Origin: a virus
Taxonomy: Monodnaviria; Loebvirae; Hofneiviricota; Faserviricetes; Tubulavirales; Inoviridae
Reading direction: 5' to 3' (one strand)
DNA length: 17,017 nt
IMG/VR virus record: IMGVR_UViG_2721755645_000001
Part shown: positions 1-13,680 of the stretch, in pieces
How positions within the stretch are numbered: the stretch's first letter is position 1
How the letters are laid out: each line of letters opens with the position of its first letter
Translations under genes and position numbers: made by a program
The notes under the pieces: generated by a model
Seen by the model: only the letters and a program-made list of their open reading frames with translations
Told to the model about the DNA's origin: nothing
Database searches by the model: none

Positions 1-2
1 TT

Positions 3-34
3 GGTGCGCATAATGTCAACGCGTTATGTTGAAA
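3..34. other. dif-like XerC/XerD recombination site (att) at the left prophage boundary
   Basis: GGTGCGCATAA (3..13) is identical to the XerC-binding arm of E. coli dif; a 10-bp central region TGTCAACGCG follows, then TTATGTTGAAA, which resembles the XerD arm TTATGTTAAAT with 2 mismatches. Confidence 0.6.
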
Positions 35-68
35 AGGCCGCTGCGAAAATCGAATCCCGCAGCGGCCT
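35..68 (-). terminator. Rho-independent terminator candidate downstream of the 309-aa cargo gene
   Basis: GC-rich inverted repeat GGCCGCTGCG (36..45) / CGCAGCGGCC (58..67) with a 12-nt loop; on the minus strand it is followed by TTTTC; the gene's stop is at 101. Confidence 0.5.
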
Positions 69-100
69 CTTTAGCATAACGTCATTGTGCGAACCAATAG

Positions 101-1030
101 CTACTTTTTCGTATAACTCTCTTCGCATTTAGCCAAAAACAGCAGATTAGTAGCGGTTAAATGAAGGGTATAACTCGCTAAATACTCAGGAACTTTTGTT
201 ATTTCTGCCCCTTGTCCATGTCCACCTTCTTTATTTCGAATGGTTGGAATACCACTCTCAAGTAGAATTCTTATTGAAGAAAATTGATTCTGGAGGTATT
301 CAGGTACTAAATTATTTGCCAAACAACTGTTAATTAGTTTTTTAGCTGTGTCAGTATCATTAAATTGCCAAGAATGTTTTTTATGTATGGCTTTCATTAG
401 ACTTTCAAAAGATTTGAGGCAATCATTTAAACATTCTTTATATCGCTGATGTCTATAATGCTCATGGGCGGATAAAAACTCATCGTTTGCTCCGTTATAA
501 CTCTTGTTCTTACCAAGAATCTGAAGCGTAGGCTTTACAACATCAGAATGAATGAATTGTGAGTCAACTTTAACCAACTCTCCTGACTCAAATTGATATC
601 CAAGACCTGCTTCTTTAAACCTGATATTAAGTTCTTCAATAGCATCATCAGGACTTTGCTTTACTAACCCTCTGAATTTCCACTCATTTGATCTTATATA
701 CCCGTCTATCAGTTTGAAACATATCTCAATGATATCCAAGCATTTTTCATGATCTCTCTCAGCTAGGAAATAGTCAAAAATTGCCCCGAAATTCGATTCA
801 GGATACTGTTTGAGAGAGAATACACCATATTCCTTACACAGCGTTTTATGAACGAGTCTGTAAAGCTTACTTGCTTCCGTTTCATAGTCACTATCTTCAC
901 CGATAGTATCTCTTACAATATGAACAACCTGAACACGAAATGCATTTGGTATATTCGTGTATTGGTAAACATCAGCTACTTCACCTCTTAATTTTTTTTG
1001 TCTTTTTGAAAATAATTCGAATATAGCCAA
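101..1030 (-). CDS. Hypothetical 309-aa cargo protein; possible HEPN-type C-terminal domain (R265-x5-H271); function unknown
   Basis: Long ORF with GAGGA Shine-Dalgarno 7 nt upstream of the ATG; very AT-rich (about 30-32% GC in hand-sampled stretches) compared with neighbours; C-terminal motif IRNKEGGHG; terminator hairpin downstream. Confidence 0.75.
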   Translation of the reverse strand: MAIFELFSKRQKKLRGEVADVYQYTNIPNAFRVQVVHIVRDTIGEDSDYETEASKLYRLVHKTLCKEYGVFSLKQYPESNFGAIFDYFLAERDHEKCLDIIEICFKLIDGYIRSNEWKFRGLVKQSPDDAIEELNIRFKEAGLGYQFESGELVKVDSQFIHSDVVKPTLQILGKNKSYNGANDEFLSAHEHYRHQRYKECLNDCLKSFESLMKAIHKKHSWQFNDTDTAKKLINSCLANNLVPEYLQNQFSSIRILLESGIPTIRNKEGGHGQGAEITKVPEYLASYTLHLTATNLLFLAKCEESYTKK

Positions 1031-1116
1031 TTTATAATCCTCAAAGATATGCCATTAATATGTCTGAGTTGATGAAAATCACACCGCTTTTACAGTCGTT
1101 TTCCACGGTGGAGTTA

Positions 1117-1536
1117 TCAGTAATATGAGTTTCTTCTGTGCCACCAATAAAGAAGTCCGTATCCAATGATAAGAATTCCGAAAAACATCAACGACATTCC
1201 CCAGCCAGTTCCGTACCACGAAACCATATCATCGAAAACCAACCCACCCATTTCACGTACTCCGGCAGCTTCCTTAAGAATTGGTTTGAATACCGGAATC
1301 AGAAGGGCGATCGCCAGTGGAGCACCCCAGCGAACAAGACCTGTTTCCATTTTGATCCCGAAAAAGATCCCCGCTCCGACAGCAAGCAACCAGACTACCA
1401 GGCCAGGCGCAGTTTCCAGTGCTGTTTGCCATTCAACATCGAAAGTTTTCATTAGCCAGGCAACAACTGCCAGACAGAAAGCAAATACGCCGACGACAAC
1501 CAGTTCAACGCCGCTTGTTTCGTTATTTCTACTCAT
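1117..1536 (-). CDS. Small integral membrane protein, about 4 predicted TM helices, unknown function
   Basis: 139 aa with four hydrophobic stretches (LVVVGVFAFCLAVVAWLM, LVVWLLAVGAGIFFGI, PLAIALLIPVF, LMFFGILIIGYGLLYWW); about 52% GC in sampled stretches; AAGGA upstream of the ATG. Confidence 0.65.
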   Translation of the reverse strand: MSRNNETSGVELVVVGVFAFCLAVVAWLMKTFDVEWQTALETAPGLVVWLLAVGAGIFFGIKMETGLVRWGAPLAIALLIPVFKPILKEAAGVREMGGLVFDDMVSWYGTGWGMSLMFFGILIIGYGLLYWWHRRNSYY

Positions 1537-1578
1537 CCTTTTGATCCTTTTTCACTGTTCAAAATTCGCACAATAAAG

Positions 1579-1607
1579 AACGTGCAGTGTTGGTAATACT
1601 GCACGTT
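1579..1607 (-). terminator. Perfect 10-bp inverted repeat (AACGTGCAGT-N9-ACTGCACGTT); candidate terminator or attenuator after the repressor gene, or an operator
   Basis: Hairpin lies 29 nt downstream of the repressor stop (1636) on the minus strand and is followed on that strand by a T-rich tract (CTTTATTGTG). Confidence 0.4.
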
Positions 1608-1635
1608 TGTCTCATTCCTGAGACTGTTAATCCTT

Positions 1636-2082
1636 TTACTCTTCTCCAGACACCGCTTTTTTCATAAACATTTTAGTACTGTAAGTGTATGAACTTAAGG
1701 CAGAAACTTGCCTTGCGAGTGCCAGAATATCTTGTTTTTCCAGTGTCCTGATGTTCCACACGATGAAATTATGTGCGTTAGTGGTTTCTTCATCAGTATA
1801 TCCATCCGCAGAAGTGATTAGCTTCCGCTCGGTAGCTTCTTCTTTAACATCAAGAGCATAGCCATAAGCTAAGGTGTTTAAGTCTGCACCCGTAATTTTA
1901 GCTATCTGAATGATGTCACTGAATTTAGGTTCAGTTTTGCCGGACGCTATCCTGACCAGCGTACTCACGCTAATGCCAGTCTTCTCGGCCAGTTCTTCAT
2001 AAGTCGAGTGTTCCAGAATTACCTTTTTGATACGTTCTGCTCTCTGTTTGTCCGCCATAACTTCATGCTCATTGTTGCCCAT
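1636..2082 (-). CDS. XRE-family helix-turn-helix transcriptional regulator (phage repressor-like, analogous in position to RstR)
   Basis: 148 aa; N-terminal HTH-like segment YEELAEKTGISVSTLVRIASGKTEPKFSDIIQIAKITGADLNTL; divergently transcribed from the replication gene; GGAG 8 nt upstream of the ATG. Confidence 0.7.
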   Translation of the reverse strand: MGNNEHEVMADKQRAERIKKVILEHSTYEELAEKTGISVSTLVRIASGKTEPKFSDIIQIAKITGADLNTLAYGYALDVKEEATERKLITSADGYTDEETTNAHNFIVWNIRTLEKQDILALARQVSALSSYTYSTKMFMKKAVSGEE

Positions 2083-2253
2083 CTACTTGGCTCCATCTTA
2101 ACAGTGGTTTTTCAATAGTTAGATTTGATGCTCATTTCTGACAATTTAAACATTGCAAATGTATTGACTGTCAGATCTGAGCATATTACATTGTGACCAT
2201 TCAATCTGCTCACAAATGACTATTGACACATATTTTGATGGGTGTGACTACTT
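2083..2253. promoter_or_regulatory. Divergent promoter/operator region between the repressor and replication genes
   Basis: Rightward sigma70-like candidate: -35 TTGACT (2164..2169), 17-bp spacer, -10 TACATT (2187..2192). Overlapping palindromes TGACTGTCA (2165..2173) and TCAGATCTGA (2171..2180) and further TGAC repeats are candidate repressor sites. Confidence 0.45.
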
Positions 2254-3306
2254 ATGATCGACTGGTTTACCGGAATCCTGCCTTGCACACACCGACCGTT
2301 ACCGGCTGGTAGTGTCGTCAGCGTCGATGCTGACGGTGCAGTGGAGTGGGAAACAGTAAAACGGTTGACCGTTCGCGGTTCGCATGAGTCCACAATGAAA
2401 GTAAGGTCTGTTGGATCTGATGGTGAAGGTCGGGCAACACATCTCTACATTGACGGTAATCCATCAAAGTTTTTGCAAGGTCACTCTGTTATCGGTTCCG
2501 ACGATTTGCAAGGGTTGGTGTTAACAGCTTACGCCAGAATATTGGCATTACTGCATATTCCTCATGATCTACCATCCTATCGGCAGGTCATGAAAGGGCA
2601 ATTTAAGATCTCGCGCATCGATATCAATTACATGTATTCATTGTCAACATTAGAAAATGTCCGCGCATGGTTATATGCCGCAGAATTTAAAGCTAAAACT
2701 CGCCACGGTCGCGCCTGTAGTAAAGGTGGCACTGTTTACTTAGGGAAAAACTCCCGTCGTTGGAGCCTGAAATTTTATTCAAAATATGATGAGCATACAT
2801 CTGGCAAAAAAGGGCACCAGATGGCAGACGAATTCGTTAAAGCTGGTTTACTGGACTGGTCAAAAGATAAATTACGCATTGAATTAACATTAAGAACAAC
2901 TGAATTAATTGATTTGAATCTTACGCTTGGTAATAGCTGGAATATTGAGACGCCCAATAAATTATTCTCTGACTATGTAGGGAGAATAGAAATGAATCAA
3001 AATACTATATTAACTGATGAAAAAATAATTAATCTCCCAAGAAAAATACAGTCTACATATTTATTGTGGAAGCAGGGCGCGAACATGAAAGAGATGTTAC
3101 CGAAACCTACATTCTACCGACACCGTAAAGAATTACTTTCTTTCGGAATAGATATTAACTTTTATTGTGAGTCACCGGATTCTAATAACGTTGTTCCGTT
3201 GGTTCGTACTCTTGAAGCCAAACCAGCCAAAATTCCATCATGGGTTTATGAGAAAGGTTTAATTTTCGATTATAACCGTATTTCACATGCCAGTAACTGG
3301 CATTAA
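2254..3306 (+). CDS. Putative rolling-circle replication initiation protein (gene II / RstA-like)
   Basis: 350-aa ORF, first gene of the plus-strand module and divergent from the repressor, as in Ff and CTX-type phages; assignment by synteny and size only, no catalytic motif verified. Confidence 0.55.
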   Translation: MIDWFTGILPCTHRPLPAGSVVSVDADGAVEWETVKRLTVRGSHESTMKVRSVGSDGEGRATHLYIDGNPSKFLQGHSVIGSDDLQGLVLTAYARILALLHIPHDLPSYRQVMKGQFKISRIDINYMYSLSTLENVRAWLYAAEFKAKTRHGRACSKGGTVYLGKNSRRWSLKFYSKYDEHTSGKKGHQMADEFVKAGLLDWSKDKLRIELTLRTTELIDLNLTLGNSWNIETPNKLFSDYVGRIEMNQNTILTDEKIINLPRKIQSTYLLWKQGANMKEMLPKPTFYRHRKELLSFGIDINFYCESPDSNNVVPLVRTLEAKPAKIPSWVYEKGLIFDYNRISHASNWH

Positions 3307-3317
3307 AGGAGAGTGAT

Positions 3318-3635
3318 ATGTCTAATTATGGTCTTTTTGTAAAAGGTAAAATGCTTGGTGCTCGCCAGCGTAATAAGGTCAATGGTCAGGGATACTATAA
3401 TGAAATTGGTGTTGGCTTAGAGATTCCTGATGGTTTTGGCGGCACTAAGCAAGACCAGATTATTATTCGTGTATCTCAGGCTCTTGTTAATGCCGGTGTA
3501 ATGAATCAGGCAAATAATTTTATCGGTAAGTTAGTCCAGATACCTGTATATGTTCGCGTCTGGTCAATGGAGGGGAGGGAAGGAGTAACTTATAACATTT
3601 CATCAGATGGCGGCATTACTGAAATAAAAGGCTGA
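3318..3635 (+). CDS. Putative ssDNA-binding protein (gene V / RstB-like)
   Basis: 105-aa ORF directly after the replication gene; strong AAGGAGAG Shine-Dalgarno; position matches gV in Ff synteny. Confidence 0.45.
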   Translation: MSNYGLFVKGKMLGARQRNKVNGQGYYNEIGVGLEIPDGFGGTKQDQIIIRVSQALVNAGVMNQANNFIGKLVQIPVYVRVWSMEGREGVTYNISSDGGITEIKG

Positions 3636-3637
3636 TT

Positions 3638-3889
3638 ATGGATACATCAGGTTTCGATATTCAGTTTGATAATCATATTCCTGAAAATGGTTACCGTATT
3701 GAAGGTTATTTATGTAATGCGAACAATGCAAAAGAATGTCAGGCAATAATGGTACGTTCTGAACCATTTCATCAAATTGATTATTCTGCAATGGGAAATT
3801 ACTGGACATTAGGTTTTGGCTCTGTCCTGCTGCTCTGGCTTTTTTCTGTAGGTGTGGGACAGGTAATAAAGATGGTTCGTACTGCTTGA
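3638..3889 (+). CDS. Small protein with a C-terminal hydrophobic segment; possible minor coat or morphogenesis protein
   Basis: 83 aa, start 2 nt after the upstream stop; C-terminal segment WTLGFGSVLLLWLFSVGVGQVI; position corresponds to gVII/gIX in Ff order. Confidence 0.4.
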   Translation: MDTSGFDIQFDNHIPENGYRIEGYLCNANNAKECQAIMVRSEPFHQIDYSAMGNYWTLGFGSVLLLWLFSVGVGQVIKMVRTA

Positions 3890-3923
3890 ATGCGAACCTT
3901 TAAAATGTAATGGAGATAGAGTT

Positions 3924-4157
3924 ATGTTTAAAAAAATCGTTAGTTTTCTGGCTGTACCTGCATTAATGGCTGTTTCTGGCGCGACTTTCGCTGCAGAAGG
4001 AGCGGCATCAAGTGGTGTTGATTTATCGCCGCTGACGAACAGCATTGATTTCAGTACAGTTCTGGTTGCGATTATGGCCGTTGCTGCTTCACTGGTAACA
4101 CTTTATGCCGGTGTCGCTGGCGTTCGCTGGGTATTGCGTACCGTTAAATCCGCATAA
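3924..4157 (+). CDS. Major coat protein (gene VIII-like)
   Basis: 77 aa; signal peptide MFKKIVSFLAVPALMAVSGATFA with AXA-type cleavage, acidic mature N-terminus, hydrophobic core and basic C-terminus (RWVLRTVKSA); GGAGA Shine-Dalgarno; strong terminator follows. Confidence 0.75.
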   Translation: MFKKIVSFLAVPALMAVSGATFAAEGAASSGVDLSPLTNSIDFSTVLVAIMAVAASLVTLYAGVAGVRWVLRTVKSA

Positions 4158-4170
4158 ATTCATTATTCAT

Positions 4171-4195
4171 GGGCGATGCAATATCGCCCGTTTTA
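4171..4195 (+). terminator. Rho-independent terminator after the coat gene
   Basis: Stem GGGCGAT (4171..4177) / ATCGCCC (4183..4189) with a 5-nt loop, followed by GTTTTA; matches the position of the gVIII terminator in Ff phages. Confidence 0.7.
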
Positions 4196-4221
4196 CTTGA
4201 GGTTATTATGGAGATTGAATT

Positions 4222-5934
4222 ATGGAAATTGGGTTCCCTTTTATGGGGGATCGTCTCAGCTTATGTCGTTATTCTTGGGCTAAGAGGCTGACGGTTTATT
4301 CCTTTATTTTTTCCTTTCTCTGGGTTTCCTTTCCCCGATATTCATATTCATTTGTACCAGCAATTGCAGCAGTGGCTGCGCGGGCTGTTATTCCTAAAGT
4401 CGTTGGCCGGGTGCTTGTTCGTCGCTTTGCTGCCAATGATGCGATTTATACGGCATCACAGCTTACAGCAACCCGTGTTTTTGTTGGCCGCGCTGCGGCT
4501 AATGCTGCCGAATACTTGCCTGCTGCCTCATCATACAAAATGAGCGGTGTTGCAACGTGGGCGGGTATTGCTGCTGCTGTATCATCTTTTGTTCCGTCTT
4601 CTTTGAGTTCATCTGACGGCTCGGTAATGGTAATGACTAACGGTAAAAAGATTTCCGATAATTTATATGAAGTAACGTACAGTGGTCAAAGTGGTGAAAG
4701 TAAGACGATAACCGTTAATTTTGAACCACAGGAATTAAGTCCGGTAATCCTTCATGTTAGTCGTAATAATGTGGATGCGGGTTCTCCAGTTGTAGGTGTT
4801 GAAACAGGATATTCCACGCCAGATAATGCACTTTATTATTATCAGGATTCGAAAGAGCTAATTTATTACTATGGTGATAATCCAACTGAAATTGCCAGAA
4901 ATTATCTTAATGACTATAACTCGCGTACTTATACTGAAACACTAACGAATTTTGAACGCACTGTGACGAATAAAGTTGTCAACAGTAATGGAGATGTCTC
5001 CTTTACTGAACAGAATTATAAGTTTACTTATCCTTCCTCATTTTATGAAATTCCTGAGATTACACACTTGTATAGCAACCCGGCCGCATCTTCATTTCCC
5101 GCAGGTATTCCCATGTATGAAAATGTAGCAGGGCTTCCCATGTATTACAGCGTTGCTTATTTAACAGCAGGAAAGCAATATCAGTATCACAACACGCCTT
5201 GTAAAACGACTAATCAGTCAAATGGTGGATATTCGACGATTTGCGCCGTTCCTGAAAAAGAGGATTACACCACAAAAGATATTGATGAAAAGAGTGAGCT
5301 TACTATCTGGACCAATACCAAATATAAAGCCATGACGGAAGTACTGGAGGCCGGAAATATTGAGTCCATGATTGATTATCTGGAGTATCTTGATAGTGTT
5401 AGTGTATCGCCAGCACTTCTTGCCGACATGATTAACGAGCTGTGGTCTGAAGCTGCCGTTAATGCCGATTATAACGGCTTACCGTTTAAAGAGGTTTCAC
5501 CGGCTGAAGTAACTTCTGCGATGTCGGAACTTAGGCTATCTCCAACGTTATTAGATATGCTTTCACCTGTATCTGACAGTGCAGGGGCTGACGTCAATAT
5601 TGATATTACCATTAATAACAACTCAGGATCTGACACTGGAAATAATGGCAATATAGATTTGGGAGAAGATCCCGGTGTAAAAGAGCCTGAGCTTGAAGAA
5701 ACGCCAACGGCAAGAGATATTTTAACGCCAATTATTAACTTGTTGCCTTTTACAAACGAATTTAACATCGGCTCTCGTTCAGCATCCTGCCCCGTTGTTG
5801 AATTCAGCGTGTTTAATCACCAGTACAGAATTGACTCCCATTGTCCGTTAATTGAGCAGAACAGAAGCGCCGTAGAAACCATATTTCTGATTATATGGGG
5901 ATTTGTTGCGCTCCGTATTATTCTTAGTGCCTAA
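4222..5934 (+). CDS. Minor coat / adsorption protein (gene III-like)
   Basis: 570 aa; signal-like hydrophobic N-terminal segment, Gly/Ser/Asn-rich linker (NNNSGSDTGNNGN) and C-terminal membrane anchor (IFLIIWGFVALRIILSA); the true start may be the internal ATG at 4243. Confidence 0.65.
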   Translation: MEIGFPFMGDRLSLCRYSWAKRLTVYSFIFSFLWVSFPRYSYSFVPAIAAVAARAVIPKVVGRVLVRRFAANDAIYTASQLTATRVFVGRAAANAAEYLPAASSYKMSGVATWAGIAAAVSSFVPSSLSSSDGSVMVMTNGKKISDNLYEVTYSGQSGESKTITVNFEPQELSPVILHVSRNNVDAGSPVVGVETGYSTPDNALYYYQDSKELIYYYGDNPTEIARNYLNDYNSRTYTETLTNFERTVTNKVVNSNGDVSFTEQNYKFTYPSSFYEIPEITHLYSNPAASSFPAGIPMYENVAGLPMYYSVAYLTAGKQYQYHNTPCKTTNQSNGGYSTICAVPEKEDYTTKDIDEKSELTIWTNTKYKAMTEVLEAGNIESMIDYLEYLDSVSVSPALLADMINELWSEAAVNADYNGLPFKEVSPAEVTSAMSELRLSPTLLDMLSPVSDSAGADVNIDITINNNSGSDTGNNGNIDLGEDPGVKEPELEETPTARDILTPIINLLPFTNEFNIGSRSASCPVVEFSVFNHQYRIDSHCPLIEQNRSAVETIFLIIWGFVALRIILSA

Positions 5935-5946
5935 AGGAGTGCAACT

Positions 5947-6147
5947 ATGTTTGGGATTCTGATTAGTGCATTAAATACTTTGTTAGGTTTTGTATTCCGG
6001 TCATTGATTATTAAATTCGTCGTATTCTTTGCGCTGTATTTTGTAGTCCAGGGCTTCGTTGATATACGGGGAAAAAATAATGAAAAAGATTTTACTCGCA
6101 TTAACGCTACTATTTTCTTCATGTGCTTTCGCAGGGTCAGAGCTTGA
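5947..6147 (+). pseudogene. Truncated gene VI-like ORF; 3' end removed by the 1183-bp deletion in copy 1
   Basis: First 38 codons identical to the 95-aa ORF at 13681..13968, then the frame diverges after the deletion junction (6062|6063) and runs into the gIV region. Confidence 0.7.
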
Positions 6148-7324
6148 ATTAAATAAAGTCAAGCTACCGGAGGCTATTTCTCTTATTTACAGTGAGGTGC
6201 TTAAAGTCCCGTATATGCTAGATCCACAGCTTGTTAATGATGAACGAATGATTACATTCAGGTTAACATCTGATATTGATGAACGGGAATTTGTAACCCG
6301 TTATCTTGGCAATATGAACATTCGAATATGGACGAAAAAGGGTGTTGATTTTATCGCGCCCTATACGCCGAAAGAGCCGGTTAAGCCACGTTATACATGG
6401 ACTTATACGCCTCAGTACCGTTCTGTTGCCTACCTGTCTGATATTCTTGGCGGCTACGTTTCAGGCTCCTTCAATAACAGTGGAGCCGTGATTTCTGACG
6501 ATTCGCTAAAAGGTTCATCAGGGGCAAGCAACTACATCAATCGAACCGGTGATATTCTGGTTTATTATGGTACGAAAGAGGATATCGCCATCCTGAAAAC
6601 ACTGGTCACTTCGCTGGATACGATGAGTGATGAAGTGGTTGTTTCTGGTTATGTTTTTGAGGTTCAGACCTCGCAGTCTGACGGCTCCGGCATTCTTTTA
6701 GCGGCTAAAATTCTGTCTGATAAATTCAATATTTCAGTTGGTGCTGCCGGACTGGATAATTTTATCAATATTCGAACCGGCTCCATTGATGCCATTTTCA
6801 ATCTGCTGAAAACCGACAGTCGTTTTACTGTTGTCAGTGCGCCACGACTGCGGGTAAAAAATAATGCCTCAGCGTCTTTTTCAGTCGGCTCTGATGTGCC
6901 AGTACTGGGCAGTGTTACGGTGAATAACAATACGACAACGCAATCCGTTGAATATCGTTCCAGCGGTGTTTTGTTTAACGTGACGCCATCAATCAAAAGT
7001 CGGACAATGGATCTCAAGATTCAGCAGCAGCTTTCCAACTTTGTGACCACTGAAACCGGCGTCAATAACTCGCCAACCCTTATCAAGCGTGATGTAACAA
7101 CCGAAGTCAGCCTTGCAGATGGTGATATTATTTTACTTGGTGGCCTTGCTGAACAGAAAGACAGTAAGGCCAGTTCCGGCTGGAGCTTCTTCGGTTCCCG
7201 TACCAGTGAAAGCAACAAGACTGATATTATGGTGATGCTTCAGGTCAGAAAGGTTGACCGGAGCAGGGCGACGCCCCGCAGCGCCGCGAGGAGCGGTGAA
7301 CTGTTCCGGGACAACCTGAACTGA
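6080..7324 (+). CDS. Secretin (gene IV-like outer-membrane export channel), copy 1
   Basis: 414 aa from the ATG at 6080; signal peptide MKKILLALTLLFSSCAFA; C-terminal secretin-like motif DGDIILLGGL. The ORF-track start at 6059 is an in-frame ATG created by the deletion junction. Confidence 0.8.
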   Translation: MKKILLALTLLFSSCAFAGSELELNKVKLPEAISLIYSEVLKVPYMLDPQLVNDERMITFRLTSDIDEREFVTRYLGNMNIRIWTKKGVDFIAPYTPKEPVKPRYTWTYTPQYRSVAYLSDILGGYVSGSFNNSGAVISDDSLKGSSGASNYINRTGDILVYYGTKEDIAILKTLVTSLDTMSDEVVVSGYVFEVQTSQSDGSGILLAAKILSDKFNISVGAAGLDNFINIRTGSIDAIFNLLKTDSRFTVVSAPRLRVKNNASASFSVGSDVPVLGSVTVNNNTTTQSVEYRSSGVLFNVTPSIKSRTMDLKIQQQLSNFVTTETGVNNSPTLIKRDVTTEVSLADGDIILLGGLAEQKDSKASSGWSFFGSRTSESNKTDIMVMLQVRKVDRSRATPRSAARSGELFRDNLN

Positions 7325-7736
7325 TTGTATGGATTTTTATTATGGCGTTAACTTTTATGGGGTATGAACAGTACGACATCTTTTTGTTGCTGTCCGGGGT
7401 TGGCCAAGCCGTACAGTTTCCATTTTCAGCGTTATGGCTGATTCGGCGCGGCAGCATTCATCGGGCCTTATCATGGAAAAATTCATGACACATCAGGAGC
7501 ATGGTGATTGGTGATGGCACTGAAGAAGTGGTGTTTGATTCTCGTGTATCAGGTACAGATTTACCAACTAACTGGATGAACAGGCCTGATTGGTGAGGTC
7601 AGGCCGTTCACTTACTGCTGACAGACATTTGATTCTGATTCGTTTGGAGAAACGGATGATTTTGAATCACTGTCGATAGTAGCCAGTTGACGGCCAGTGT
7701 CAACGATTCCCGCCAGATTCTGCCATCCTTACCATT

Positions 7737-7768
7737 GGTGCGCATAATGTCAACGCGTTATGTTGAAA
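7737..7768. other. dif-like XerC/XerD site at the junction between the tandem prophage copies
   Basis: Same 32-bp sequence as 3..34, lying exactly at the copy 1 / copy 2 boundary. Confidence 0.6.
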
Positions 7769-7802
7769 AGGCCGCTGCGAAAATCGAATCCCGCAGCGGC
7801 CT
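7769..7802 (-). terminator. Rho-independent terminator candidate (copy 2 equivalent)
   Basis: Same hairpin as 35..68. Confidence 0.5.
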
Positions 7803-7834
7803 CTTTAGCATAACGTCATTGTGCGAACCAATAG

Positions 7835-8764
7835 CTACTTTTTCGTATAACTCTCTTCGCATTTAGCCAAAAACAGCAGATTAGTAGCGGTTAAATGAAG
7901 GGTATAACTCGCTAAATACTCAGGAACTTTTGTTATTTCTGCCCCTTGTCCATGTCCACCTTCTTTATTTCGAATGGTTGGAATACCACTCTCAAGTAGA
8001 ATTCTTATTGAAGAAAATTGATTCTGGAGGTATTCAGGTACTAAATTATTTGCCAAACAACTGTTAATTAGTTTTTTAGCTGTGTCAGTATCATTAAATT
8101 GCCAAGAATGTTTTTTATGTATGGCTTTCATTAGACTTTCAAAAGATTTGAGGCAATCATTTAAACATTCTTTATATCGCTGATGTCTATAATGCTCATG
8201 GGCGGATAAAAACTCATCGTTTGCTCCGTTATAACTCTTGTTCTTACCAAGAATCTGAAGCGTAGGCTTTACAACATCAGAATGAATGAATTGTGAGTCA
8301 ACTTTAACCAACTCTCCTGACTCAAATTGATATCCAAGACCTGCTTCTTTAAACCTGATATTAAGTTCTTCAATAGCATCATCAGGACTTTGCTTTACTA
8401 ACCCTCTGAATTTCCACTCATTTGATCTTATATACCCGTCTATCAGTTTGAAACATATCTCAATGATATCCAAGCATTTTTCATGATCTCTCTCAGCTAG
8501 GAAATAGTCAAAAATTGCCCCGAAATTCGATTCAGGATACTGTTTGAGAGAGAATACACCATATTCCTTACACAGCGTTTTATGAACGAGTCTGTAAAGC
8601 TTACTTGCTTCCGTTTCATAGTCACTATCTTCACCGATAGTATCTCTTACAATATGAACAACCTGAACACGAAATGCATTTGGTATATTCGTGTATTGGT
8701 AAACATCAGCTACTTCACCTCTTAATTTTTTTTGTCTTTTTGAAAATAATTCGAATATAGCCAA
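7835..8764 (-). CDS. Hypothetical 309-aa cargo protein (copy 2), possible HEPN-type C-terminus
   Basis: Identical translation to 101..1030. Confidence 0.75.
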   Translation of the reverse strand: MAIFELFSKRQKKLRGEVADVYQYTNIPNAFRVQVVHIVRDTIGEDSDYETEASKLYRLVHKTLCKEYGVFSLKQYPESNFGAIFDYFLAERDHEKCLDIIEICFKLIDGYIRSNEWKFRGLVKQSPDDAIEELNIRFKEAGLGYQFESGELVKVDSQFIHSDVVKPTLQILGKNKSYNGANDEFLSAHEHYRHQRYKECLNDCLKSFESLMKAIHKKHSWQFNDTDTAKKLINSCLANNLVPEYLQNQFSSIRILLESGIPTIRNKEGGHGQGAEITKVPEYLASYTLHLTATNLLFLAKCEESYTKK

Positions 8765-8850
8765 TTTATAATCCTCAAAGATATGCCATTAATATGTCTG
8801 AGTTGATGAAAATCACACCGCTTTTACAGTCGTTTTCCACGGTGGAGTTA

Positions 8851-9270
8851 TCAGTAATATGAGTTTCTTCTGTGCCACCAATAAAGAAGTCCGTATCCAA
8901 TGATAAGAATTCCGAAAAACATCAACGACATTCCCCAGCCAGTTCCGTACCACGAAACCATATCATCGAAAACCAACCCACCCATTTCACGTACTCCGGC
9001 AGCTTCCTTAAGAATTGGTTTGAATACCGGAATCAGAAGGGCGATCGCCAGTGGAGCACCCCAGCGAACAAGACCTGTTTCCATTTTGATCCCGAAAAAG
9101 ATCCCCGCTCCGACAGCAAGCAACCAGACTACCAGGCCAGGCGCAGTTTCCAGTGCTGTTTGCCATTCAACATCGAAAGTTTTCATTAGCCAGGCAACAA
9201 CTGCCAGACAGAAAGCAAATACGCCGACGACAACCAGTTCAACGCCGCTTGTTTCGTTATTTCTACTCAT
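8851..9270 (-). CDS. Small integral membrane protein (copy 2)
   Basis: Identical translation to 1117..1536. Confidence 0.65.
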   Translation of the reverse strand: MSRNNETSGVELVVVGVFAFCLAVVAWLMKTFDVEWQTALETAPGLVVWLLAVGAGIFFGIKMETGLVRWGAPLAIALLIPVFKPILKEAAGVREMGGLVFDDMVSWYGTGWGMSLMFFGILIIGYGLLYWWHRRNSYY

Positions 9271-9312
9271 CCTTTTGATCCTTTTTCACTGTTCAAAATT
9301 CGCACAATAAAG

Positions 9313-9341
9313 AACGTGCAGTGTTGGTAATACTGCACGTT
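9313..9341 (-). terminator. Inverted repeat, candidate terminator or operator (copy 2)
   Basis: Same sequence as 1579..1607. Confidence 0.4.
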
Positions 9342-9369
9342 TGTCTCATTCCTGAGACTGTTAATCCTT

Positions 9370-9816
9370 TTACTCTTCTCCAGACACCGCTTTTTTCATA
9401 AACATTTTAGTACTGTAAGTGTATGAACTTAAGGCAGAAACTTGCCTTGCGAGTGCCAGAATATCTTGTTTTTCCAGTGTCCTGATGTTCCACACGATGA
9501 AATTATGTGCGTTAGTGGTTTCTTCATCAGTATATCCATCCGCAGAAGTGATTAGCTTCCGCTCGGTAGCTTCTTCTTTAACATCAAGAGCATAGCCATA
9601 AGCTAAGGTGTTTAAGTCTGCACCCGTAATTTTAGCTATCTGAATGATGTCACTGAATTTAGGTTCAGTTTTGCCGGACGCTATCCTGACCAGCGTACTC
9701 ACGCTAATGCCAGTCTTCTCGGCCAGTTCTTCATAAGTCGAGTGTTCCAGAATTACCTTTTTGATACGTTCTGCTCTCTGTTTGTCCGCCATAACTTCAT
9801 GCTCATTGTTGCCCAT
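9370..9816 (-). CDS. XRE-family HTH transcriptional regulator (copy 2)
   Basis: Identical translation to 1636..2082. Confidence 0.7.
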   Translation of the reverse strand: MGNNEHEVMADKQRAERIKKVILEHSTYEELAEKTGISVSTLVRIASGKTEPKFSDIIQIAKITGADLNTLAYGYALDVKEEATERKLITSADGYTDEETTNAHNFIVWNIRTLEKQDILALARQVSALSSYTYSTKMFMKKAVSGEE

Positions 9817-9987
9817 CTACTTGGCTCCATCTTAACAGTGGTTTTTCAATAGTTAGATTTGATGCTCATTTCTGACAATTTAAACATTGCAAATGTATTG
9901 ACTGTCAGATCTGAGCATATTACATTGTGACCATTCAATCTGCTCACAAATGACTATTGACACATATTTTGATGGGTGTGACTACTT
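9817..9987. promoter_or_regulatory. Divergent promoter/operator region (copy 2)
   Basis: Same sequence as 2083..2253. Confidence 0.45.
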
Positions 9988-11040
9988 ATGATCGACTGGT
10001 TTACCGGAATCCTGCCTTGCACACACCGACCGTTACCGGCTGGTAGTGTCGTCAGCGTCGATGCTGACGGTGCAGTGGAGTGGGAAACAGTAAAACGGTT
10101 GACCGTTCGCGGTTCGCATGAGTCCACAATGAAAGTAAGGTCTGTTGGATCTGATGGTGAAGGTCGGGCAACACATCTCTACATTGACGGTAATCCATCA
10201 AAGTTTTTGCAAGGTCACTCTGTTATCGGTTCCGACGATTTGCAAGGGTTGGTGTTAACAGCTTACGCCAGAATATTGGCATTACTGCATATTCCTCATG
10301 ATCTACCATCCTATCGGCAGGTCATGAAAGGGCAATTTAAGATCTCGCGCATCGATATCAATTACATGTATTCATTGTCAACATTAGAAAATGTCCGCGC
10401 ATGGTTATATGCCGCAGAATTTAAAGCTAAAACTCGCCACGGTCGCGCCTGTAGTAAAGGTGGCACTGTTTACTTAGGGAAAAACTCCCGTCGTTGGAGC
10501 CTGAAATTTTATTCAAAATATGATGAGCATACATCTGGCAAAAAAGGGCACCAGATGGCAGACGAATTCGTTAAAGCTGGTTTACTGGACTGGTCAAAAG
10601 ATAAATTACGCATTGAATTAACATTAAGAACAACTGAATTAATTGATTTGAATCTTACGCTTGGTAATAGCTGGAATATTGAGACGCCCAATAAATTATT
10701 CTCTGACTATGTAGGGAGAATAGAAATGAATCAAAATACTATATTAACTGATGAAAAAATAATTAATCTCCCAAGAAAAATACAGTCTACATATTTATTG
10801 TGGAAGCAGGGCGCGAACATGAAAGAGATGTTACCGAAACCTACATTCTACCGACACCGTAAAGAATTACTTTCTTTCGGAATAGATATTAACTTTTATT
10901 GTGAGTCACCGGATTCTAATAACGTTGTTCCGTTGGTTCGTACTCTTGAAGCCAAACCAGCCAAAATTCCATCATGGGTTTATGAGAAAGGTTTAATTTT
11001 CGATTATAACCGTATTTCACATGCCAGTAACTGGCATTAA
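9988..11040 (+). CDS. Putative replication initiation protein (copy 2)
   Basis: Identical translation to 2254..3306. Confidence 0.55.
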   Translation: MIDWFTGILPCTHRPLPAGSVVSVDADGAVEWETVKRLTVRGSHESTMKVRSVGSDGEGRATHLYIDGNPSKFLQGHSVIGSDDLQGLVLTAYARILALLHIPHDLPSYRQVMKGQFKISRIDINYMYSLSTLENVRAWLYAAEFKAKTRHGRACSKGGTVYLGKNSRRWSLKFYSKYDEHTSGKKGHQMADEFVKAGLLDWSKDKLRIELTLRTTELIDLNLTLGNSWNIETPNKLFSDYVGRIEMNQNTILTDEKIINLPRKIQSTYLLWKQGANMKEMLPKPTFYRHRKELLSFGIDINFYCESPDSNNVVPLVRTLEAKPAKIPSWVYEKGLIFDYNRISHASNWH

Positions 11041-11051
11041 AGGAGAGTGAT

Positions 11052-11369
11052 ATGTCTAATTATGGTCTTTTTGTAAAAGGTAAAATGCTTGGTGCTCGCC
11101 AGCGTAATAAGGTCAATGGTCAGGGATACTATAATGAAATTGGTGTTGGCTTAGAGATTCCTGATGGTTTTGGCGGCACTAAGCAAGACCAGATTATTAT
11201 TCGTGTATCTCAGGCTCTTGTTAATGCCGGTGTAATGAATCAGGCAAATAATTTTATCGGTAAGTTAGTCCAGATACCTGTATATGTTCGCGTCTGGTCA
11301 ATGGAGGGGAGGGAAGGAGTAACTTATAACATTTCATCAGATGGCGGCATTACTGAAATAAAAGGCTGA
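11052..11369 (+). CDS. Putative ssDNA-binding protein (copy 2)
   Basis: Identical translation to 3318..3635. Confidence 0.45.
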   Translation: MSNYGLFVKGKMLGARQRNKVNGQGYYNEIGVGLEIPDGFGGTKQDQIIIRVSQALVNAGVMNQANNFIGKLVQIPVYVRVWSMEGREGVTYNISSDGGITEIKG

Positions 11370-11371
11370 TT

Positions 11372-11623
11372 ATGGATACATCAGGTTTCGATATTCAGTT
11401 TGATAATCATATTCCTGAAAATGGTTACCGTATTGAAGGTTATTTATGTAATGCGAACAATGCAAAAGAATGTCAGGCAATAATGGTACGTTCTGAACCA
11501 TTTCATCAAATTGATTATTCTGCAATGGGAAATTACTGGACATTAGGTTTTGGCTCTGTCCTGCTGCTCTGGCTTTTTTCTGTAGGTGTGGGACAGGTAA
11601 TAAAGATGGTTCGTACTGCTTGA
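11372..11623 (+). CDS. Small hydrophobic protein, possible minor coat protein (copy 2)
   Basis: Identical translation to 3638..3889. Confidence 0.4.
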   Translation: MDTSGFDIQFDNHIPENGYRIEGYLCNANNAKECQAIMVRSEPFHQIDYSAMGNYWTLGFGSVLLLWLFSVGVGQVIKMVRTA

Positions 11624-11657
11624 ATGCGAACCTTTAAAATGTAATGGAGATAGAGTT

Positions 11658-11891
11658 ATGTTTAAAAAAATCGTTAGTTTTCTGGCTGTACCTGCATTAA
11701 TGGCTGTTTCTGGCGCGACTTTCGCTGCAGAAGGAGCGGCATCAAGTGGTGTTGATTTATCGCCGCTGACGAACAGCATTGATTTCAGTACAGTTCTGGT
11801 TGCGATTATGGCCGTTGCTGCTTCACTGGTAACACTTTATGCCGGTGTCGCTGGCGTTCGCTGGGTATTGCGTACCGTTAAATCCGCATAA
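11658..11891 (+). CDS. Major coat protein (copy 2)
   Basis: Identical translation to 3924..4157. Confidence 0.75.
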   Translation: MFKKIVSFLAVPALMAVSGATFAAEGAASSGVDLSPLTNSIDFSTVLVAIMAVAASLVTLYAGVAGVRWVLRTVKSA

Positions 11892-11904
11892 ATTCATTAT
11901 TCAT

Positions 11905-11929
11905 GGGCGATGCAATATCGCCCGTTTTA
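11905..11929 (+). terminator. Rho-independent terminator after the coat gene (copy 2)
   Basis: Same sequence as 4171..4195. Confidence 0.7.
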
Positions 11930-11955
11930 CTTGAGGTTATTATGGAGATTGAATT

Positions 11956-13668
11956 ATGGAAATTGGGTTCCCTTTTATGGGGGATCGTCTCAGCTTATGT
12001 CGTTATTCTTGGGCTAAGAGGCTGACGGTTTATTCCTTTATTTTTTCCTTTCTCTGGGTTTCCTTTCCCCGATATTCATATTCATTTGTACCAGCAATTG
12101 CAGCAGTGGCTGCGCGGGCTGTTATTCCTAAAGTCGTTGGCCGGGTGCTTGTTCGTCGCTTTGCTGCCAATGATGCGATTTATACGGCATCACAGCTTAC
12201 AGCAACCCGTGTTTTTGTTGGCCGCGCTGCGGCTAATGCTGCCGAATACTTGCCTGCTGCCTCATCATACAAAATGAGCGGTGTTGCAACGTGGGCGGGT
12301 ATTGCTGCTGCTGTATCATCTTTTGTTCCGTCTTCTTTGAGTTCATCTGACGGCTCGGTAATGGTAATGACTAACGGTAAAAAGATTTCCGATAATTTAT
12401 ATGAAGTAACGTACAGTGGTCAAAGTGGTGAAAGTAAGACGATAACCGTTAATTTTGAACCACAGGAATTAAGTCCGGTAATCCTTCATGTTAGTCGTAA
12501 TAATGTGGATGCGGGTTCTCCAGTTGTAGGTGTTGAAACAGGATATTCCACGCCAGATAATGCACTTTATTATTATCAGGATTCGAAAGAGCTAATTTAT
12601 TACTATGGTGATAATCCAACTGAAATTGCCAGAAATTATCTTAATGACTATAACTCGCGTACTTATACTGAAACACTAACGAATTTTGAACGCACTGTGA
12701 CGAATAAAGTTGTCAACAGTAATGGAGATGTCTCCTTTACTGAACAGAATTATAAGTTTACTTATCCTTCCTCATTTTATGAAATTCCTGAGATTACACA
12801 CTTGTATAGCAACCCGGCCGCATCTTCATTTCCCGCAGGTATTCCCATGTATGAAAATGTAGCAGGGCTTCCCATGTATTACAGCGTTGCTTATTTAACA
12901 GCAGGAAAGCAATATCAGTATCACAACACGCCTTGTAAAACGACTAATCAGTCAAATGGTGGATATTCGACGATTTGCGCCGTTCCTGAAAAAGAGGATT
13001 ACACCACAAAAGATATTGATGAAAAGAGTGAGCTTACTATCTGGACCAATACCAAATATAAAGCCATGACGGAAGTACTGGAGGCCGGAAATATTGAGTC
13101 CATGATTGATTATCTGGAGTATCTTGATAGTGTTAGTGTATCGCCAGCACTTCTTGCCGACATGATTAACGAGCTGTGGTCTGAAGCTGCCGTTAATGCC
13201 GATTATAACGGCTTACCGTTTAAAGAGGTTTCACCGGCTGAAGTAACTTCTGCGATGTCGGAACTTAGGCTATCTCCAACGTTATTAGATATGCTTTCAC
13301 CTGTATCTGACAGTGCAGGGGCTGACGTCAATATTGATATTACCATTAATAACAACTCAGGATCTGACACTGGAAATAATGGCAATATAGATTTGGGAGA
13401 AGATCCCGGTGTAAAAGAGCCTGAGCTTGAAGAAACGCCAACGGCAAGAGATATTTTAACGCCAATTATTAACTTGTTGCCTTTTACAAACGAATTTAAC
13501 ATCGGCTCTCGTTCAGCATCCTGCCCCGTTGTTGAATTCAGCGTGTTTAATCACCAGTACAGAATTGACTCCCATTGTCCGTTAATTGAGCAGAACAGAA
13601 GCGCCGTAGAAACCATATTTCTGATTATATGGGGATTTGTTGCGCTCCGTATTATTCTTAGTGCCTAA
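11956..13668 (+). CDS. Minor coat / adsorption protein (copy 2)
   Basis: Identical translation to 4222..5934. Confidence 0.65.
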   Translation: MEIGFPFMGDRLSLCRYSWAKRLTVYSFIFSFLWVSFPRYSYSFVPAIAAVAARAVIPKVVGRVLVRRFAANDAIYTASQLTATRVFVGRAAANAAEYLPAASSYKMSGVATWAGIAAAVSSFVPSSLSSSDGSVMVMTNGKKISDNLYEVTYSGQSGESKTITVNFEPQELSPVILHVSRNNVDAGSPVVGVETGYSTPDNALYYYQDSKELIYYYGDNPTEIARNYLNDYNSRTYTETLTNFERTVTNKVVNSNGDVSFTEQNYKFTYPSSFYEIPEITHLYSNPAASSFPAGIPMYENVAGLPMYYSVAYLTAGKQYQYHNTPCKTTNQSNGGYSTICAVPEKEDYTTKDIDEKSELTIWTNTKYKAMTEVLEAGNIESMIDYLEYLDSVSVSPALLADMINELWSEAAVNADYNGLPFKEVSPAEVTSAMSELRLSPTLLDMLSPVSDSAGADVNIDITINNNSGSDTGNNGNIDLGEDPGVKEPELEETPTARDILTPIINLLPFTNEFNIGSRSASCPVVEFSVFNHQYRIDSHCPLIEQNRSAVETIFLIIWGFVALRIILSA

Positions 13669-13680
13669 AGGAGTGCAACT

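What the first reader, a model, noticed from the sequence alone, without database searches (positions are those of the whole stretch)
101..1536. Cargo pair next to the att site: 4-TM membrane protein plus a 309-aa protein; candidate undescribed defence/exclusion or virulence module
On the minus strand, downstream of the repressor and abutting the dif-like site, sit two genes with no counterpart in the canonical Ff gene set: a 139-aa 4-TM membrane protein and a 309-aa soluble protein with its own strong Shine-Dalgarno and terminator. The att-proximal position, opposite orientation to the structural genes and anomalous base composition are typical of phage cargo genes (morons). Pairing a small membrane protein with a possible HEPN-like effector resembles abortive-infection or superinfection-exclusion modules, but I do not recognise this as a described system. 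If the element belongs to the CUS-1/Ypf-phi group of dif-integrated enterobacterial inoviruses (not verified), the 309-aa gene could instead be the strain-specific virulence-associated gene reported for that group. The module is repeated at 7835..9270.
Basis: partly seen in the sequence, partly recalled or inferred. Interest (0 to 1): 0.85.

Follow-up and report, generated by a model that had tools for sequence, protein, structure and literature searches.

The report
AbiJ-type HEPN cargo gene in inovirus
The 309-aa gene is a stand-alone, widely travelled member of the predicted AbiJ-type HEPN "suicide RNase" family that landed in the swappable cargo slot of a CUS/Ypf-type filamentous prophage, and the neighbouring 4-helix membrane gene is a separate accessory gene of the phage, not its partner.

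Summary
Both ORFs exist exactly as described and recur, 100% identical, at 7835-9270. The window is the tandem CUSφ/Ypfφ-type inovirus prophage at dif of E. coli NGF1 (also NC101). The pair is not one module.

- **Its homologues.** There are more than 3,000. They sit alone in Vibrio superintegron cassettes, small integrase islets and plasmids, with no membrane partner.
- **139-aa 4-TM protein.** This is a roughly 50-member orphan family confined to Enterobacterales dif-inoviruses. It occurs in 128 of 5,426 complete E. coli genomes, against 18 for the 309-aa gene.
- **The cargo slot.** The 309-aa gene is a 1.0-kb, 35% GC single-gene cassette. It lies between the membrane gene's stop codon and a conserved 98-bp att hairpin. 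At least nine other cargos, or nothing, occupy the same slot elsewhere.
- **Ypfφ.** It lacks both genes.
- **puvA.** This is the g3p-like adsorption gene, not the 309-aa gene.

Most likely the 309-aa protein is a one-protein abortive-infection RNase. That function is inferred and untested. The finding is a new member of a known kind and of modest interest.

The parts
101..1030 (-). 309-aa AbiJ-NTD4 + HEPN protein (STM4504/CBY_0614 family), the single-gene cargo. NTD4 spans about residues 1-168 and HEPN about 170-305. The catalytic motif is R265-NKEGG-H271.
7835..8764 (-). Second, identical copy of the 309-aa gene, in tandem prophage copy 2.
1031..1113 (-). 5' leader of the cassette, with Shine-Dalgarno GAGGA at 1038-1042. 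No convincing sigma-70 promoter and no terminator lie between the two genes.
   Evidence: Sequence and scan. Homology with other cargo variants breaks at 1089-1115.
1117..1536 (-). 139-aa four-helix inner-membrane protein (phrog_4174). It is a separate accessory gene conserved in Enterobacterales dif-inoviruses. Its function is unknown.
   Evidence: Contexts. Absent from Ypfφ.
8851..9270 (-). Second, identical copy of the membrane gene.
1..98 (.). Conserved att block that forms the outer boundary of the cargo slot. It holds two inverted dif-like sites (3-34, and 69-95 on the minus strand) around a GC stem (36-45 / 58-67). It folds as a forked ssDNA hairpin, and on the minus-strand mRNA the GC stem plus UUUUC looks like the terminator for whatever gene fills the slot.
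   Evidence: 92.9-97.0% identical across cargo variants other than NCTC9104, which matches as part of the whole 1-1637 block. DNA fold -32.4 kcal/mol, z -6.9. RNA fold -52.6 kcal/mol, z -7.8. Salmonella empty slot.
7735..7832 (.). Same att block at the junction between the two tandem copies.
   Evidence: D1
1571..1606 (-). 9-bp hairpin (1598-1606 / 1580-1588) plus a T-rich tail after the repressor gene. Homology with Ypfφ ends just inside it, at about 1556, so everything from about 99 to 1555 is accessory.
   Evidence: Sequence. Ypfφ homology starts at window 9290, which equals 1556 in copy 1.
1636..2082 (-). 148-aa HTH (Cro/CI, RstR-like) repressor. It is a backbone gene upstream of the accessory region and is listed for context.
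   Evidence: The protein is identical in NC101, UTI89, MS8345 and Y. pestis.

Best explanation
The two ORFs are two independent accessory genes stacked between the repressor and the attP hairpin of a CUSφ/Ypfφ-type, dif-integrating inovirus. They are not one system.

**309-aa gene**
- Shown: it is a horizontally mobile single-gene cassette of about 1.0 kb and 35% GC. It occupies a hypervariable cargo slot bounded by the stop codon of the membrane gene and the 98-bp att block.
- Shown: its product is a full-length member of the STM4504/CBY_0614 family, with an N-terminal AbiJ-NTD4 domain fused to an AbiJ-clade HEPN domain that keeps the Rx4-6H catalytic motif.
- Inferred, from the family model of Anantharaman et al. 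2013 and from characterised single-protein HEPN defences such as HepS: in the lysogen the protein sits inactive. The NTD4 domain acts both as sensor and as in-cis inhibitor. A component of an infecting phage relieves the inhibition. The HEPN domain, probably as a dimer or higher oligomer, then cleaves cellular RNA (tRNA, rRNA or mRNA), and translation stops before the invader completes its cycle. That protects the clonal population and the resident filamentous prophage.

**139-aa protein**
- Shown: it is a separate accessory gene that is much more constant in Enterobacterales dif-inoviruses but dispensable, since Ypfφ lacks it.
- Guess: superinfection exclusion or another lysogen-expressed envelope function.
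For: **Domains, motif and fold:**

**Family size and architecture:** 905 representatives at 50% clustering have E<=1e-30, and nearly all of the 150 listed are about 300-aa full-length matches.

**The 309-aa gene stands alone elsewhere**
- V. cholerae superintegron cassettes, with a different neighbour each time.
- A proA-adjacent integrase islet in Enterobacteriaceae.
- Halomonas, Y. ruckeri and a K. aerogenes plasmid at 92% identity.

**Slot boundaries and alternative cargos:**. Empty slots.

**Composition:** the GC break falls exactly at the cassette.

**No antitoxin-like partner:** no second gene lies in the cassette, there are no tandem repeats and no RNA family match.

**Defence-type neighbourhoods or alleles**
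- Partial match to the PADLOC candidate PDC-S32, 4.5e-10.
- A sister cargo carries a DpnII-MboI REase domain and matches a PADLOC Argonaute-associated REase model at 1.3e-34.

**Precedents:** filamentous-prophage variable loci enriched in defence genes in Vibrio (PMC11630473), and a single-protein HEPN Abi on a prophage (PMC13043305).
Against: - No member of the NTD4 subfamily has a published phage-resistance test that I could find.
- Even L. lactis AbiJ has no known mechanism (PMC13064643).
- The protein matches no named Abi model in PADLOC, only a candidate model, and only in part.
- Pfam Abi_C is below threshold in the current release (12.8 bits against 24).
- The catalytic loop 259-276 is modelled at low confidence.
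- The family is unusually conserved for a defence gene, at 69-75% identity between E. coli and Vibrio, Shewanella or Halomonas.
- Promoter and transcription are unresolved.
- The block 1-1637, which carries both genes, has moved as a unit onto a UPφ-type backbone. Linkage of the two genes is therefore not excluded by that case alone.
Confidence: 0.6

Rival explanations
1. Two-gene abortive-infection or exclusion module. The HEPN protein and the 4-TM protein would work together, for example as a sensor/RNase plus a membrane effector or anchor, in the manner of RexAB.
For: The genes are adjacent, co-directional and 86 nt apart, with no terminator between them. Both are present in all 18 E. coli genomes that carry the 309-aa gene. 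The block 1-1637 is 98.7% identical on a different (UPφ-type) backbone.
Against: - The 309-aa family has more than 3,230 homologues and the membrane family about 50.
- 110 of the 128 E. coli genomes with the membrane gene lack the 309-aa gene.
- Homologues at 74-92% identity stand alone with unrelated neighbours.
- The membrane gene occurs with at least nine other cargos or with an empty slot.
- A sharp GC break separates the two genes.
Confidence: 0.1
2. Addiction or stabilisation toxin. The HEPN RNase would act as a post-segregational killer that penalises loss of the unstable tandem prophage or episome, rather than defending against other phages.
Against: No antitoxin gene (MNT or other) lies in the cassette or is conserved next to homologues. 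There is no repeat-RNA antitoxin. A single stable protein cannot by itself give post-segregational killing.
Confidence: 0.12
3. Host-directed fitness or virulence factor: the strain-specific virulence gene of the CUS-1 group.
For: CUS-1 and Ypfφ modestly raise in-vivo fitness (PMC4266046). Cargo at this end of the phage differs between pathotypes.
Against: - The reported gene, puvA, is the g3p-like adsorption protein, not this gene (PMC4266046).
- The CUS-1 lineage strain UTI89 carries a different, 369-aa cargo, and Ypfφ carries two other ORFs.
- The 309-aa protein has no signal peptide or hydrophobic segment; the maximum 19-residue Kyte-Doolittle mean is 0.98.
- The family is spread through marine and environmental bacteria.
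Confidence: 0.05
4. A non-catalytic or regulatory HEPN domain that binds a ligand, as in MtlR or sacsin, with no RNase or suicide activity.
Against: R265, N266 and H271 are at least 90% conserved across the family down to about 40% identity. Families that have lost catalysis typically lose the R or the H (table in PMC3710099). The genomic contexts are mobile or defence-like.
Confidence: 0.1

Closest known systems
AbiJ (Abi-859) of Lactococcus lactis and the AbiJ-NTD4/HEPN architecture typified by CBY_0614 (Anantharaman et al. 2013, PMC3710099)
   Same: Same two-domain plan: a variable N-terminal 'NTD' fused to an AbiJ-clade HEPN domain with Rx4-6H. It is a single polypeptide of about 300 aa with no partner gene. 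The Pfam AbiJ_NTD4 and NCBIfam STM4504/CBY_0614 thresholds are passed.
   Different: No direct comparison with the lactococcal protein was possible here. The NTD type may differ from that of AbiJ itself. No phenotype has been reported for any NTD4 member. Here the gene is carried by a filamentous prophage in E. coli.
HepS of the Salmonella Gifsy-1 prophage (PMC13043305)
   Different: - No detectable sequence relationship, and a different N-terminal region.
- HepS is about 218 aa and senses siphovirus tail-tip proteins; the trigger and the RNA target here are unknown.
- The carrier here is a non-lytic inovirus.
Taranis, a V. cholerae superintegron cassette (bioRxiv 10.1101/2024.07.02.601686)
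   Same: A single-gene cassette with an Abi_C-type HEPN domain and an AbiJ-NTD-like N-terminus, experimentally anti-phage. A 74%-identical homologue of the 309-aa protein is itself a V. cholerae superintegron cassette.
   Different: The N-terminus of Taranis is described as NTD5-like, not NTD4. I have no evidence that the NTD4 cassette was tested.
Variable accessory loci of filamentous prophages (Vibrio, PMC11630473), P2/P4 defence hotspots, and the 'variable accessory regions' of CUSφ, Ypfφ and UPφ (PMC4266046, PMC7307601)
   Same: Conserved flanks with interchangeable, low-GC cargo next to the att site. Some cargos carry defence-type nuclease domains.
   Different: Here the slot is mapped to the base (about 99-1113) in Enterobacterales dif-inoviruses. 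A second, more constant accessory gene (the 4-TM protein) lies inside it. Most alleles have no recognisable domain. Earlier papers on this phage group reported these ORFs as having no homologues.

Membership tests
STM4504/CBY_0614 (AbiJ-NTD4 + AbiJ-clade HEPN) | N-terminal AbiJ-NTD4 domain (PF18863) | tested here: met
   E 8.6e-27, 94.9 bits against a cut-off of 34, residues 5-168.
STM4504/CBY_0614 (AbiJ-NTD4 + AbiJ-clade HEPN) | C-terminal HEPN domain of the AbiJ clade | tested here: met
   - DUF7014 scores 258.9 bits against a cut-off of 27, residues 170-305.
- Precomputed PF14355 (Abi_C) is listed for this protein and all listed homologues.
- Abi_C reaches only 12.8 bits in the current Pfam release.
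STM4504/CBY_0614 (AbiJ-NTD4 + AbiJ-clade HEPN) | Rx4-6H catalytic motif | tested here: met
   R265-NKEGG-H271. It is invariant in 32 homologues and at least 90% conserved in 45 representatives at 37-57% identity.
STM4504/CBY_0614 (AbiJ-NTD4 + AbiJ-clade HEPN) | NCBIfam NF046078 score above the curated cut-off | tested here: met
   456.1 bits against 150, covering model positions 1-280 of 281.
Abortive-infection system (functional class) | Phage resistance with death or arrest of the infected cell; RNase activity dependent on R and H | not testable with these tools
   No experimental report on an NTD4 member was found.
L. lactis AbiJ (strict homology) | Detectable sequence similarity to Abi-859 itself | not tested
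PADLOC returned no named Abi model, only PDC-S32 at 4.5e-10 over residues 6-223.
   - Homologue counts are about 3,230 and about 50.
- E. coli genomes number 18 and 128.
- The 309-aa gene stands alone.
- The membrane gene occurs with other cargo or none.
HEPN toxin-antitoxin (HEPN-MNT type II, or type III with an RNA antitoxin) | Adjacent antitoxin gene or repeat-RNA antitoxin | tested here: not met
   There is no second gene in the cassette, no tandem repeats and no Rfam match above noise. Neighbours of the homologues are not conserved.
puvA (CUS-1 virulence-associated gene) | Identity with the gene hit in the signature-tagged screen | tested here: not met
   PMC4266046 describes puvA as the virion protein that binds the host receptor. 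The window's 570-aa g3p-like ORF is at 4222-5934. The CUS-1-lineage strain UTI89 lacks the 309-aa gene.
CUSφ/Ypfφ group of dif-integrating inoviruses (the carrier element) | Near-identity of the backbone and integration at dif | tested here: met
   99.6% identity over 7,366 bp to the Y. pestis NCTC5923 prophage. The element sits in tandem next to hipBA in NC101. The inovirus gene set is present: Phage_CRI/G2P, Zot, secretin. dif-like sites lie in the att block.
Mobile-element cargo/defence hotspot | Conserved flanks with interchangeable cargo; cargo enriched in defence genes | tested here: inconclusive
   Flanks and at least 10 slot states are shown. Only two alleles carry recognisable defence-type nuclease domains, HEPN and the DpnII-MboI REase domain. 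The others have no significant hits.

The most novel reading that the evidence does not exclude
The att-proximal slot of Enterobacterales dif-inoviruses (CUSφ, Ypfφ and UPφ types) may be a genuine anti-phage hotspot. On this reading the AbiJ-NTD4 HEPN protein is one working single-gene defence. Several of the unannotated alleles would be new defence systems: the 369-aa CUS-1 orf1, the 363-aa ORF, the 155+123-aa, 159+91-aa and 262+98-aa pairs, the 110-aa ORF, and YPO2271/2272 of the plague phage. The conserved 4-TM protein would be the phages' superinfection-exclusion factor. That would recast the long-unexplained 'fitness' ORFs of CUS-1 and Ypfφ as phage-warfare genes.
Probability: 0.3. Interest if true: 0.55.

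Novelty: new member of a known kind. Interest (0 to 1): 0.33.

Why it matters
If the prediction holds, a chronic, non-lytic filamentous prophage at dif would arm its E. coli host with a compact one-gene RNase defence. The hosts include widely used mouse strains (NC101, NGF1) and clinical isolates. The finding also gives a functional label to ORFs that the CUS-1, Ypfφ and UPφ literature reported as having no homologues. The precisely mapped slot is a small, tractable place to look for further defence genes: conserved 98-bp att hairpin, then cargo, then the 4-TM gene. The concept itself is already established for Vibrio filamentous prophages and for P2/P4 hotspots, and the protein family was described computationally in 2013. 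The gain is therefore incremental.

Tried and rejected
- **Phage record search.** Megablast of 1-2200 against the phage collection found nothing.
- **Solved structures by sequence.** Only noise came back, with E>0.1.
- **Membrane protein.**
  - No Pfam, PADLOC or meaningful NCBIfam hit.
  - The AF2 model is weak (pLDDT 65), and the BFVD fold search gave nothing with E<0.5.
  - A profile search added only two homologues, from Pantoea and Xenorhabdus. Its function remains a guess.
- **Type III TA idea.** Rejected, because there are no tandem repeats and no Rfam family.
- **Halomonas neighbour as a hidden membrane partner.** Rejected. It is soluble and unrelated.
- **Promoters.** The scan found no sigma-70-like site upstream of either gene, so transcription is unresolved.
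- **Literature.** Searches for STM4504, PDC-S32, DUF7014, AbiJ_NTD4, AbiJ-like and PICI + AbiJ found no experimental work on this subfamily.
- **Other cargo alleles.** Pfam and PADLOC scans were mostly empty. By eye, the C-terminus of the 369-aa CUS-1 cargo looked TIR-like or nucleotide-binding, but no model supported that, so I make no such claim.
Full report
**1. What is in the sequence**

The window holds two head-to-tail copies of a filamentous prophage. Copy 1 is 1-7734 and copy 2 runs from 7735 to the end. The 309-aa ORF (101-1030, minus strand, TTG start) and the 139-aa ORF (1117-1536, minus strand) are real, and both recur unchanged at 7835-8764 and 8851-9270.

The window is 100% identical to E. 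coli NGF1 (NZ_CP016007.1, 1-16883) and 99.8% identical to NC101 and others. In NC101 the array lies directly after hipBA, which is where dif sits. RefSeq annotates the two genes there as 'STM4504/CBY_0614 family protein' and 'hypothetical protein'.

The backbone carries the Phage_CRI/G2P replication protein, a G5P-like protein, a 570-aa adsorption protein, DUF2523, Zot and a secretin. It is 99.6% identical over 7.4 kb to the Ypfφ prophage of Y. pestis NCTC5923. The repressor protein is identical in UTI89, the O18:K1:H7 lineage that hosts CUS-1.

**2. The 309-aa protein**

*Domain matches*
- Pfam gives AbiJ_NTD4 (residues 5-168, 8.6e-27) and DUF7014 (170-305, 1.1e-77). Abi_C and HEPN hits are sub-threshold.
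- NCBIfam NF046078 'STM4504/CBY_0614' scores 456 bits against a cut-off of 150.
- PADLOC gives only a partial match to the unvalidated candidate PDC-S32 (4.5e-10).

*Motif and fold*
- The HEPN motif is R265-NKEGG-H271. It is invariant in 32 homologues and at least 90% conserved in 45 cluster representatives at about 40% identity.
- The catalytic loop 259-276 and the conserved N-terminal 20 residues are poorly modelled.

*Prior description*
- This architecture, AbiJ-NTD4 + AbiJ HEPN, was defined on CBY_0614 by Anantharaman et al. (PMC3710099). They proposed that the NTD senses a viral component and restrains the suicidal RNase.

*Conservation within the protein*
- The HEPN half is more conserved than the NTD: mean column identity is 0.87 against 0.72. 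The most variable patches are at residues 41-60, 71-80 and 111-130.

**3. The pair is not a unit**

*Family sizes*
- The 309-aa family has more than 3,230 homologues across Gammaproteobacteria and beyond. It also has 905 representatives at 50% clustering with E<=1e-30, and nearly all of the 150 listed are about 300-aa full-length matches.
- The membrane protein has about 50 homologues, all in Enterobacterales.

*Contexts of the 309-aa gene elsewhere*

| Homologue | Identity | Context |
|---|---|---|
| V. cholerae | 74% | single superintegron cassettes, four different neighbour sets |
| Enterobacteriaceae | 74% | lone gene beside an integrase next to proA |
| Halomonas | 74% | alone; the downstream neighbour is soluble and unrelated to the membrane protein |
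| Y. ruckeri | 81% | alone in an island |
| K. aerogenes plasmid | 92% | alone |
| Salmonella | 96% | the same inovirus, next to the membrane gene |

Only the Salmonella variant keeps the inovirus setting.

*Counts in E. coli*
- Among 5,426 complete E. coli genomes, the 309-aa gene is in 18 and the membrane gene in 128.

**4. Anatomy of the accessory region**

BLAST against variants puts one conserved edge at window 1-98, the att block. That block is 92.9-97.0% identical across the cargo variants other than NCTC9104. The other edge is at 1089-1115, the stop codon of the membrane gene.

The interval between them holds only the 309-aa gene and its 86-nt leader with the GAGGA Shine-Dalgarno. It is 34.7% GC, against 47.4% for the membrane gene.

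The same slot carries other contents elsewhere:

| Slot content | Where seen |
|---|---|
| 369-aa ORF | UTI89 (CUS-1 lineage); 10 E. coli genomes |
| 363-aa ORF | CAVp367 |
| 264-aa protein with a DpnII-MboI REase domain (PADLOC Aga_Helical-REase 1.3e-34; N-terminus PDC-S35) plus DUF6953 | 24 genomes |
| 155 + 123 aa | MS8345; 15 genomes at ≥99% identity, plus 80 at 80-90% identity; most matches are on plasmids |
| 110 aa | IMG/VR contig |
| 159 + 91 aa | IMG/VR contigs |
| 262 + 98 aa | IMG/VR contig |
| HTH protein + DUF6904 | Salmonella |
| other ORFs | Y. enterocolitica, Xenorhabdus |
| nothing (8-11 nt) | Salmonella and IMG/VR contigs |

All slot intervals measured in the IMG/VR contigs, including the 11-nt empty ones, are about 35-36% GC, and their main ORFs lie on the membrane-gene strand.

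In Ypfφ, homology to the window resumes only at the copy-1 equivalent of position 1556. Ypfφ therefore lacks the membrane gene as well and carries a 135-aa and an 87-aa ORF instead. This matches the statement that YPO2271/2272 are replaced by orf1/orf1a in CUS-1 (PMC4266046). Both genes are thus accessory, in two nested tiers.

The whole block 1-1637 also appears at 98.7% identity on a UPφ-type (IKe/I2-2-like) backbone in NCTC9104. That probably corresponds to the 'three ORFs in reverse orientation' by dif that the UPφ paper reported as lacking homologues (PMC7307601).

**5. The 'own terminator'**

The GC hairpin (36-45 / 58-67) with its U-run lies inside the conserved att block. That block is an imperfect palindrome of two inverted dif-like sites. 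It folds as a forked ssDNA hairpin (-32.4 kcal/mol, z -6.9), which resembles the attP(+) structure of CTXφ; that comparison rests on my own knowledge. It follows whatever gene fills the slot. It may still terminate the mRNA, but it is a feature of the phage, not of the cargo.

**6. Mechanism**

*Shown*
- A mobile single-gene cassette encodes an intact AbiJ-NTD4-HEPN protein with a conserved catalytic dyad.
- It has no partner or antitoxin gene, no repeat RNA and no Rfam match.

*Inferred*
- It is a self-contained sensor-effector abortive-infection RNase of the kind proposed for AbiJ proteins.
- This mode of action has been demonstrated for the unrelated single HEPN protein HepS of prophage Gifsy-1 (PMC13043305).
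- The V. cholerae cassette Taranis, which carries an Abi_C domain, is experimentally anti-phage (bioRxiv 10.1101/2024.07.02.601686).
- The carrier phage gains because its host clone survives lytic phages.

*Unknown*
- The trigger, the RNA target, the oligomeric state and the transcription signals. No sigma-70-like promoter was found upstream of either gene.

*The 4-TM protein*
- It has no informative homology or fold match.
- Superinfection exclusion is only a guess. It rests on the gene's position on the lysogeny-side strand and on its membrane location.

**7. Rivals**

The rival readings, with my confidence in each, are:
- a true two-gene module, about 0.1;
- an addiction toxin, about 0.12;
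- a non-catalytic HEPN domain, about 0.1;
- a virulence factor, about 0.05. puvA is the g3p-like adsorption protein, not this gene (PMC4266046).

**8. Verdict**

- The 'pair', 'undescribed' and 'virulence gene' parts are not supported.
- This is a new member of a known, computationally described but experimentally untested family.
- It sits in a cargo slot whose general nature is already known for filamentous prophages (PMC11630473).
- Interest is modest. The most useful by-product is the base-level map of the slot and its list of unannotated alleles.

Noticed in passing
window 1-7734 vs 7735-17017 (junction near 6059; 16296-16672): Copy 1 of the tandem prophage is a deletion derivative. It lacks 1,183 bp, covering the 3' part of the DUF2523/pVI-like gene and the whole zot/pI gene. 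It also lacks about 370 bp that include the 82-aa ORF at 16330-16578 of copy 2. Only copy 2 looks able to assemble virions. In NC101 both copies are full length (9,268-bp period).
   Followed up: partly
window 1-98 (= 7735-7832): The att block is an imperfect palindrome of two inverted dif-like sites. One is at 3-34, GGTGCGCATAA..TTATGTTGAAA. The other is on the minus strand at 69-95, GGTTCGCACAATGACGTTATGCTAAAG. The block folds as a forked ssDNA hairpin (-32.4 kcal/mol, z -6.9), which suggests CTXφ-style integration of single-stranded attP(+).
   Followed up: partly
L023:2358-3429 (E. coli D8; also VR50, L030, L033): An alternative cargo in the same slot. It is a 264-aa protein with a C-terminal DpnII-MboI REase domain (Pfam 6.9e-59; PADLOC Argonaute-associated Helical-REase 1.3e-34; N-terminus matches PDC-S35), plus an 88-aa DUF6953 protein. 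It is present in 24 complete E. coli genomes.
   Followed up: partly
L003:743-1627 (E. coli MS8345): The 155-aa + 123-aa cargo pair of this slot is found at 99% identity or more in 15 E. coli genomes. It is also found at 80-90% identity in 80 more. Across all matches, 73 of 105 places are on plasmids, so the pair looks like a separate mobile two-gene module of unknown function. The 155-aa protein has an N-terminal TM helix and is related to the 159-aa cargo of L035/L036.
   Followed up: no
L056:5374-6066 (Y. pestis NCTC5923, Ypfφ): Ypfφ lacks both genes of the finding. It carries a 135-aa and an 87-aa ORF (presumably YPO2272/YPO2271) between the repressor terminator and the att block. Neither has any Pfam or PADLOC hit.
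   Followed up: partly
L016:7001-7423 and L020:7001-7411 (Lonsdalea, Mixta): Homologues of the 4-TM gene sit alone near the glutaminase (glsB-like) gene with no inovirus genes around them. They look like remnants of decayed dif-site prophages.
   Followed up: no
NZ_CP092647.1 (E. coli EC5502), hit H76: The membrane gene matches 16 places in this one genome, at 94% identity. This could be a very long tandem array or many scattered copies.
   Followed up: no
L055 and L058 (genome contigs): Contigs labelled 'Candidatus Nanosynbacter' MAG and 'Ruminococcaceae' MAG carry this E. coli-type inovirus at 93-99% identity. These are most likely binning contamination.
   Followed up: no
window 1580-1606 (minus strand): A 9-bp hairpin with a 9-nt loop and a T-rich tail lies just after the repressor stop codon. 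The terminator scan missed it because of its loop limit of 8. It marks the inner edge of the accessory region.
   Followed up: no
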